Shown: positions 27,656 to 28,066 of the stretch, piece by piece | Layout of the letters: every line of letters starts with the position of its first letter | Position numbering within the stretch: position 1 is the stretch's first letter | Assembly (NCBI GenBank): GCA_964016885.1 | Contig: OZ024761.1 | Location: 31,496,001 to 31,560,000 of the forward strand | DNA length: 64,000 nucleotides | DNA from: Eledone cirrhosa | Taxonomy: Eukaryota | Direction: 5' to 3' | Program-made: the position numbers and the translations under genes | Notes under the pieces: model-generated | The model's database searches: none | What the model was told of the DNA's origin: nothing | What the model saw: only the letters and a program-made list of their open reading frames with translations

Positions 27656-28066
27656 GTATGAATGAAGTAATTCCGTCGGAAAAGTCCAGGAAAAAGAGTG
27701 CTCTATGTAGGTAACATAGCTTAATAGTTATGTAATAAACAACATAAGGCAATTACTTCATTTACCAGTGGTTTCTTAAAAGCAAAAAAATGTTGCTTTC
27801 AATCATCAGAATGAAAAAATCCTGGTGTATTTATTGACGTTGGATTTTAAAAACAAAAATGCAACCGATATGAAAGTGAGGCTGGAAAAGCTATAAAAGC
27901 TTTTCCAGCCTCACTTTCATATCGGTTGCATTTTTGTTTTTAAAATCCAACGTCAATAAATACACCAGGATTTTTTCATTCTGATGATTGAAAGCAACAT
28001 TTTTTTGCTTTTAAGAAACCAGTGGTAAATGAAATAATTGCCTTATGTTGTTTATTACATAACTAT
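27656..28066. mobile_element. Foldback element, family F, with an HHR in each arm
   Basis: ~169-bp arms 27724-27892/27898-28066, a 5-nt loop and a unique tail at 27656-27723. Confidence 0.9.
27974..28034 (+). ncRNA. Type I hammerhead ribozyme candidate (best-formed copy)
   Basis: TTTCATT-CTGATGA-TTGAAAGCAA..TTGCTTTTAA-GAAA-CCAGTGG-TA^AATGAAA: 7-bp stem I, 10-bp stem II, near-palindromic stem III; mirror copy at 27757-27815 (-). Confidence 0.85.

What the first reader, a model, noticed from the sequence alone, without database searches (positions are those of the whole stretch)
27724..28066. Rod-like hairpin with an intact hammerhead in both polarities
Seen: 169-bp near-perfect arms with a 5-nt loop. 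The + copy (27974-28034) has a 7-bp stem I, 10-bp stem II, near-palindromic stem III (ACCAGTGGT) and a GUA site; the - copy is at 27757-27815. Inference: a transcript from either strand contains one HHR plus its exact antisense, so long dsRNA formation would compete with ribozyme folding. That could act as a self-inhibiting switch, an ADAR substrate (A-to-I editing is extensive in coleoids) or an endo-siRNA source. The layout resembles viroid-like ambisense rods, but here it is simply explained by the inversion.
Basis: partly seen in the sequence, partly recalled or inferred. Interest (0 to 1): 0.75.

Follow-up and report, generated by a model that had tools for sequence, protein, structure and literature searches.

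The report
Head-to-head Penelope retrotransposon end pair
The hairpin and both ribozyme motifs are real, but they match the ordinary ends of a known kind of jumping gene (a Hydra-type Penelope element), likely pasted twice back to back into a TA repeat, and a transcript running through both halves is predicted to lock the ribozymes off rather than switch them.

Summary
Observation confirmed: 169-nt arms, 2 mismatches, 5-nt loop, and a type I hammerhead on each strand. The centre also stands in raw-read contigs, so it is not an assembly artefact.

The arm is the terminal repeat (pLTR) of a high-copy Penelope-like retrotransposon. Full-length copies are pLTR, ~710-aa RT/GIY-YIG ORF, pLTR, and the protein carries all five Hydra-clade motifs I could test. 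All 11 short inverted pairs found have a one-sided tail and their own junction, so each hairpin is a separate insertion by-product.

This layout is published: Hydra-clade Penelope-13_HM has hammerheads listed on both strands, and Schistosoma PLEs have opposite-strand pairs. The scan found it before on other DNA of this genome.

The switch idea fails on thermodynamics. Folding the ribozyme costs about 77 kcal/mol, and the antisense arm is transcribed first on either strand. Transcription, editing and siRNA could not be tested.

One side lead: the tail end can pair with the strand just after the cleavage site; covariation is absent.

The parts
26563..27659 (.). (TA)n-type microsatellite, left flank (insertion target)
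27660..27723 (-). 64-nt PLE tail, present only on the - copy; in full-length elements it continues into the 5' leader, about 120 nt before the ORF
27724..27890 (-). 5'-truncated pLTR copy with tail (main copy), 167 nt
   Evidence: 95-97% identity to 39 other genomic places listed
27756..27816 (-). type I hammerhead, intact core; predicted cut between 27763 and 27762
27891..27899 (.). 9-nt non-family junction containing the 5-nt loop; unique to this locus
   Evidence: bridged by raw-read contigs
27900..28066 (+). inverted 5'-truncated pLTR copy without tail, ending at the family's second fixed end
27974..28034 (+). type I hammerhead, intact core; predicted cut between 28027 and 28028
27661..27672 (-). 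tail end complementary to 27751-27762 (first 12 nt after the cut site); predicted helix that excludes hammerhead stem I
   Evidence: no compensatory change seen
28067..28184 (.). (TA)n-type microsatellite, right flank

Best explanation
The hairpin is two short copies of the terminal repeat of a Penelope-like retrotransposon lying head-to-head in a TA microsatellite, likely written there in one insertion event by the element's own reverse transcriptase. Shown: the repeat is the pLTR of elements with an RT/GIY-YIG ORF of Hydra type; copies end at two fixed points 64 nt apart; inverted pairs carry the tail on one side only and differ in their centres. Inferred: the endonuclease cuts (TA)n; reverse transcription starts at the two fixed internal sites of one donor's RNA, once for each side of the break; both copies abort about 75 nt past the ribozyme and are joined through a 9-nt filler. 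The hammerhead is cargo of the pLTR; its likely job is processing the element's own RNA, probably as a dimer or with protein help. In a read-through transcript of this locus it would be buried in double-stranded RNA.
For: Search with arm+tail: 1783 first-look candidates, 40 scored, 39 places besides the window's own two at 95-97%. Forward linkage: L036, L038 and L033 run collinearly from the ORF end through a ~2.3-2.9-kb microsatellite-rich UTR to the arm. Reverse linkage: of 20 loci fetched for their RT match, 19 hold the ORF 3' end and 18 have a full arm downstream on the same strand, 17 of them at 1.66-2.19 kb. Several have the repeat on both sides of the ORF, or partial tandems. The protein has RWK, DKT, CxCX5C, CxxC..E and N..CxH and lacks the CX2-5CxxC linker, as defined for Hydra (PMC8557442 section 11). 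Of 117 distinct copies, 50 end at unit position 163-171 (13 of these are an internal second copy in a sister subfamily) and 61 at 228-233; 6 end elsewhere. 11 of 11 head-to-head pairs with centres up to 250 nt have exactly one tail. All 6 genomic hairpins centred in the same 30 nt have different junctions. The window's arms differ by 2 of 167 from each other and by at least 4 from any other copy, and share three variants. Core conserved with N7 free: 84 of 93 terminal copies intact; N7 is T 52, G 38, C 3.
Against: The copies with intact ORFs are a sister subfamily (pLTR 87-90% identical to the window); the linked ORFs of the 95-97% subfamily that I saw are broken or partial. Pfam names neither domain of the full ORF; RVT_1 is only E 0.029 on a fragment. 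The assignment rests on motifs and on Atlas look-alikes with GIY-YIG/RVT_1 in a share of members; no tree was built. Two-sided priming versus fold-back self-priming is not resolved: this locus is truncated at the same base on both arms, which fold-back explains more easily. The unit (about 4.3 kb) and tail (64 nt) are longer than published for Hydra (<3 kb) and PLE tails (30-40 bp). No target-site duplication can be read inside (TA)n.
Confidence: 0.93

Rival explanations
1. A selected regulatory element: a ribozyme switch, ADAR substrate or endo-siRNA source.
For: A read-through RNA would form 167 bp of dsRNA. With more than a thousand candidate copies, siRNAs from such hairpins could silence the family; this is inference.
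Against: No two-state behaviour: 77 kcal/mol gap, and the antisense arm comes first on both strands. The junction is unique and young. No A>G excess among 55 copies against their majority (A>G 43, T>C 48, C>T 42; at most 5 per copy); this tests only edits fixed in DNA. No host-gene domain was found in 89 ORFs of at least 70 aa (small exons would be missed).
Confidence: 0.04
2. Same element, other route: one cDNA folds back on itself at the 9-nt filler and is copied back (self-priming), giving the palindrome.
For: Both arms stop at the same family base here. Several other junctions in raw-read contigs are exactly symmetrical with short fillers (tables 5 and 5c). Proposed in PMC3846280 (passage read).
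Against: It does not by itself explain why the tail-less arm stops at the same second end (unit position 165-171) in all 11 pairs. Other pairs are truncated 3-16 nt apart, and L036 much further.
Confidence: 0.3
3. A foldback DNA transposon (MITE) or viroid-like ambisense rod that moves or replicates as a unit.
For: Perfect long inverted arms; hammerheads in both polarities.
Against: Only the window matched the whole 343 nt at high identity among 40 scored candidates. 1 of 29 other tail-bearing loci has an inverted arm within 1.5 kb. Junctions all differ. The two ribozymes are exact reverse complements, not overlapping motifs evolved separately.
Confidence: 0.01
4. Assembly or fold-back read artefact.
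For: Perfect palindromes in microsatellite deserts are artefact-prone (general knowledge).
Against: The centre is bridged with 0 differences in 3 of 4 runs. The arms differ at 2 sites. The one-sided tail follows the family rule.
Confidence: 0.01

Closest known systems
Hydra clade of C-terminal EN+ Penelope-like elements (Craig et al. 2021, PMC8557442; sections 6 and 11, passages, and supplement part 2 read), e.g. Hydra-1_Obim and Penelope-13_HM
   Same: Diagnostic protein motifs, (TA)n target, and a canonical type I hammerhead near the 3' end with a palindromic stem III (Hydra-1_Obim has the same four-base stem III arms with another centre base). Penelope-13_HM is annotated with a 5'-truncated inverted copy and has its hammerhead listed on both strands.
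   Different: Longer unit (about 4.3 kb against <3 kb) through a microsatellite-rich UTR; 64-nt tail; stems I and II differ from the Hydra-1_Obim row, so probably another family. Full sequences were not compared.
Dual opposite-strand min-HHRs of Schistosoma mansoni Cercyon PLEs (Cervera and De la Pena 2014, PMC4209133; parts 1-2 of 4 read)
   Same: The paper reports dual hammerheads about 100-700 bp apart on opposite strands, attributed to truncated PLEs; palindromic helix III; dimer model; low in vitro activity.
   Different: Here stem II is 10 bp and stem III is a 9-nt near-palindrome, not a minimal one; other clade.
Inverted pLTR plus optional tail in Adineta vaga Penelope families (PMC3846280, passages) and internal RT initiation in Poseidon_Ac (PMC11167929, parts 1-2 of 4)
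   Same: Head-to-head inversion, palindromic junctions, tail on one end, two RT start sites bounding the tail.
   Different: The hammerhead lies about 220 nt upstream of the start codon here, not across it; the tail is longer.
Viroid-like ambisense rods and non-LTR retrozymes (viroids from general knowledge; retrozymes: bioRxiv 10.64898/2026.07.22.740005, part 1 of 5)
   Same: Hammerhead motifs; rod shape.
   Different: No tandem monomers and no unit-length replication; the rod is an exact inverted duplication.

Membership tests
EN+ Penelope-like element | Single ORF with RT and C-terminal GIY-YIG endonuclease linked to the repeat | tested here: met
   18 of 20 ORF-selected loci have the arm downstream; RT motifs seen; Atlas look-alikes 0.96-0.99. 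The window's own insertion holds no ORF.
EN+ Penelope-like element | pLTRs flanking the ORF, partial tandems | tested here: met
   L064, L067, L068, L071, L074, L076, L077, L078, L080
EN+ Penelope-like element | Inverted 5'-truncated copy and one-sided tail | tested here: met
   11 of 11 short pairs; the tail is 64 nt against the published 30-40
EN+ Penelope-like element | Hammerhead motif within the pLTR | tested here: met
   84 of 93 terminal copies with intact core
Hydra clade | RWK motif and DKG changed to DKT | tested here: met
   R41-W42-K43, D118-K119-T120 of P0001
Hydra clade | CxCX5C linker; CCHH absent; CxxC and CxH beside the conserved E and N | tested here: met
   C560, C562, C568; C663/C666 before E669; C694/H696 after N685; no cysteine inside the GIY-YIG core; CX2-5CxxC not matched
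Hydra clade | Insertion into (TA)n | tested here: met
   Microsatellite within 22 nt after 50 of 50 short ends and 51 of 61 tail ends; 9 of the 10 exceptions continue into the element's own leader. Weak in a microsatellite-rich genome; no background was computed.
Hydra clade | Generally shorter than 3 kb | tested here: not met
   Tandem unit about 4.3 kb. The paper gives this as a tendency, not a diagnostic.
Hydra clade | Placement in the RT phylogeny | not tested
Hammerhead ribozyme, type I | Self-cleavage | not testable with these tools
   Monomer stem III predicted at about 3% occupancy; two copies can pair at -8 to -11 kcal/mol
Viroid-like ambisense circle or MITE | Propagates as one unit with a fixed centre | tested here: not met

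The most novel reading that the evidence does not exclude
The real switch is inside the element's own single-arm RNA: the last 12-14 nt of the tail pair with the strand right after the hammerhead cut site and displace stem I. The ribozyme could then cut only in the ~100-nt window before the tail is transcribed, and the folded 102-nt domain (cut site to tail end) would both silence it and present the two reverse-transcription start sites.
Probability: 0.12. Interest if true: 0.55.

Novelty: new member of a known kind. Interest (0 to 1): 0.17.

Why it matters
As a single locus it matters little: it is one of many insertion scars, and the same window has two more unrelated foldbacks with intact hammerheads on both strands. 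The useful message for the scan is that a long hairpin with outward-pointing hammerheads in (TA)n and extra sequence on one side is a PLE insertion signature. The family is young and abundant (20 of 150 listed RT matches lie in open frames of 700 aa or more, counted by eye), so it offers many junctions for studying how PLEs make inverted copies. If such foldbacks are transcribed they would be a bulk source of dsRNA, but that is a property of the class and is unproven here.

Tried and rejected
Rfam scan: no hit. RNA evidence: no RNA holder listed, which says nothing about expression; the four runs laid were contigs of unrecorded kind. Pfam and PDB sequence searches with the full ORF: nothing significant. 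Host gene: 89 ORFs scanned, only a LINE zf-RVT fragment at 33159-33554 (-) and a sub-threshold ZrgA hit. Fossil ADAR editing: no A>G excess; the top copy L063 shows none over its ORF. I first took the upstream partial copy in L004 for a direct pLTR and dropped that: it is a separate insertion ending in (AT)n. I first guessed the Neptune clade from recalled motifs and dropped that after reading the Hydra definition. The head-to-head labels were wrong for overlapping centres (L064, L088) and were recomputed. Tail-end helix: no compensatory change among 51 copies; by eye it is not evident in the other window families (not computed). Sampling is biased: favours tail-bearing copies, only centres within 30 nt, and one search took 20 of 150 RT matches chosen mostly for long open frames. 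Literature: 4 searches; I did not search specifically for the tail-end helix, so I make no claim that it is unpublished.

Full report
Observation. The inverted repeat is as described: 169-nt arms at 27724-27892 and 27898-28066, two mismatches, a 5-nt loop, folding at -270.9 kcal/mol with z -47. My descriptor scan finds a type I hammerhead on each strand, at 27974-28034 (+) and 27816-27756 (-), with stems of 7, 10 and 4 pairs and a GUA site. Rfam has no hit in the window. Contigs from three runs of one sample bridge the centre with no difference at depth 2-5, so it is not an assembly fold-back. The structure sits in TA microsatellite, with 64 nt of extra unique sequence on the left only (27660-27723). 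Below, 'unit position' counts along the minus strand from 27892.

A repeat family. The window lies in a 3.0-Gb genome. Arm plus extension gave 1783 first-look candidates; of 40 scored, 39 places other than the window match at 95-97% over nearly all 233 nt. Of the 29 other loci fetched, one (L014) has an inverted arm within 1.5 kb; the rest continue upstream into shared microsatellite-rich sequence and break off at variable points. In 12 loci extended 8 kb upstream, 4 have an inverted arm, each ending at unit position 169 without the extension. Across 117 distinct copies the 3' ends are bimodal: 50 at 163-171 (13 of them an internal second copy in a sister subfamily), 61 at 228-233, 6 elsewhere.

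The parent element. L036 runs collinearly from RT and endonuclease reading frames through a long UTR to the arm, and is itself a several-kb head-to-head palindrome. A search with its RT fragment listed 150 matches at 89-100%. Of 20 of these loci fetched, 19 hold the ORF end and 18 have the full arm downstream on the same strand. Many have the repeat on both sides of a 713-715-codon open frame, or partial tandems of about 4.3 kb. The arm is therefore a pLTR and the extension is the PLE tail, which in full-length copies runs on into the leader about 120 nt before the ORF. The protein has RWK, DKT, CxCX5C, CxxC before E and CxH after N, and lacks the Neptune/Naiad linker. These are the diagnostics of the Hydra clade (PMC8557442 section 11). 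Pfam and PDB searches do not name it; Atlas look-alikes carry GIY-YIG or RVT_1 in a share of members, and 1432 proteins match at E <= 1e-20. Caveat: the intact ORFs belong to a sister subfamily whose pLTR is 87-90% identical to the window.

How the hairpin arose. All 11 head-to-head pairs with centres up to 250 nt carry the tail on exactly one side, each with its own junction (two of the 11 keep only the tail on one side). A genome-wide pattern for centres in the same 30 nt found 6 loci with 6 different junctions, and raw contigs show many further centres. The window's arms share three variants and are closer to each other (2 differences) than to any other copy (at least 4), so both come from one donor. 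This is the published PLE insertion form: an inverted 5'-truncated copy and a tail at one end (PMC8557442), head-to-head with palindromic junctions (PMC3846280), the tail bounded by two RT start sites (PMC11167929). Hammerheads on both strands are in print for Schistosoma PLEs (PMC4209133) and for Hydra-clade Penelope-13_HM (supplement). Fold-back self-priming remains a real rival, since both arms here stop at the same base.

The ribozyme. The core is conserved where catalysis needs it: 84 of 93 terminal copies are intact while N7 varies. Stem III is marginal as a monomer (about 3% predicted occupancy) and pairs between two copies at -8 to -11 kcal/mol. This fits the dimer model and the low in vitro activity reported for PLE hammerheads; Poseidon_Ac's needs its protein. 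In the isolated tail-less arm the active fold costs 3.4 kcal/mol; in the full hairpin 77. On either strand the antisense arm is transcribed first and the rod zips as the second arm emerges. Read-through RNA would thus be plain dsRNA, not a switch. Whether it exists is unknown. No A>G excess is fixed in the DNA copies.

Side lead. With the tail present, the tail's last 12-14 nt pair with the strand after the cut site, stem I is lost and the active fold costs 9.2 kcal/mol. The duplex is -14.6 kcal/mol in the window copy (0 of 500 shuffles), -8.4 in the common family form (3 of 500) and -5.5 in one sister-subfamily copy (58 of 500); the usual sister form is -7.7. No compensatory change was seen among 51 copies, the pairing was noticed post hoc, and the sequence is AT-rich, so I give it 12%.

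Verdict. A real structure of an ordinary, published kind: a head-to-head pLTR pair of a Hydra-type Penelope-like element, also reported earlier by this scan on other DNA of the same genome. The family itself may be uncatalogued. Interest 0.17.

Noticed in passing
window 5591-5898 and 23952-24410: Two more foldbacks of unrelated sequence with intact type I hammerheads on both strands, next to (TA)n; the second has an extension of about 100 nt on one side.
   Followed up: partly
window 25590-26020, 26380-26556, 60750-60940, 28185-28410, 28985-29347: Further foldbacks or single arms with one-sided extensions. 28185-28410 is the 23952 family with its left arm missing; 26380 and 60750 are one family; my scan found no hammerhead in the 28985 foldback.
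   Followed up: partly
window 27756 and 28022: Both differences between the arms sit at quasi-palindromes: one perfects the tail-end helix (only in the tail-bearing arm; 1 of 51 copies), the other inverts the centre of stem III (1 of 93). This could reflect template switching in the cDNA; n = 2, post hoc.
   Followed up: partly
L064-L081, about 400-450 nt after the ORF stop: The subfamily with intact ORFs carries a second, degenerate hammerhead copy inside its 3' UTR (H17 is G in 11 of 11 aligned), ending at the tail-less end; it looks like an old terminal repeat captured internally.
   Followed up: partly
L089 (= L044) centre: The junction filler is a 19-nt piece of the element's own tail joined through a short shared motif, suggesting a template jump.
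   Followed up: no
window 27690-27718 (-) and L064/L066/L071 leader: A 7-bp hairpin (-8.0 kcal/mol) starts a few bases beyond the tail-less end. A similar-starting segment follows the tail end but folds weakly (-3.5 to -4.6). This only partly fits earlier notes on twin hairpins.
   Followed up: partly
L042:3741-5630: A different PLE-like RT and GIY-YIG frame with a CX4CxxC linker (Neptune-like by recalled motif), broken by stops.
   Followed up: no
window 3395-3607 (+); 16197-19735; 33159-33554 (-): A diverged endonuclease fragment related to the family ORF (35%); a 32-bp minisatellite of about 109 copies; a LINE zf-RVT fragment.
   Followed up: no
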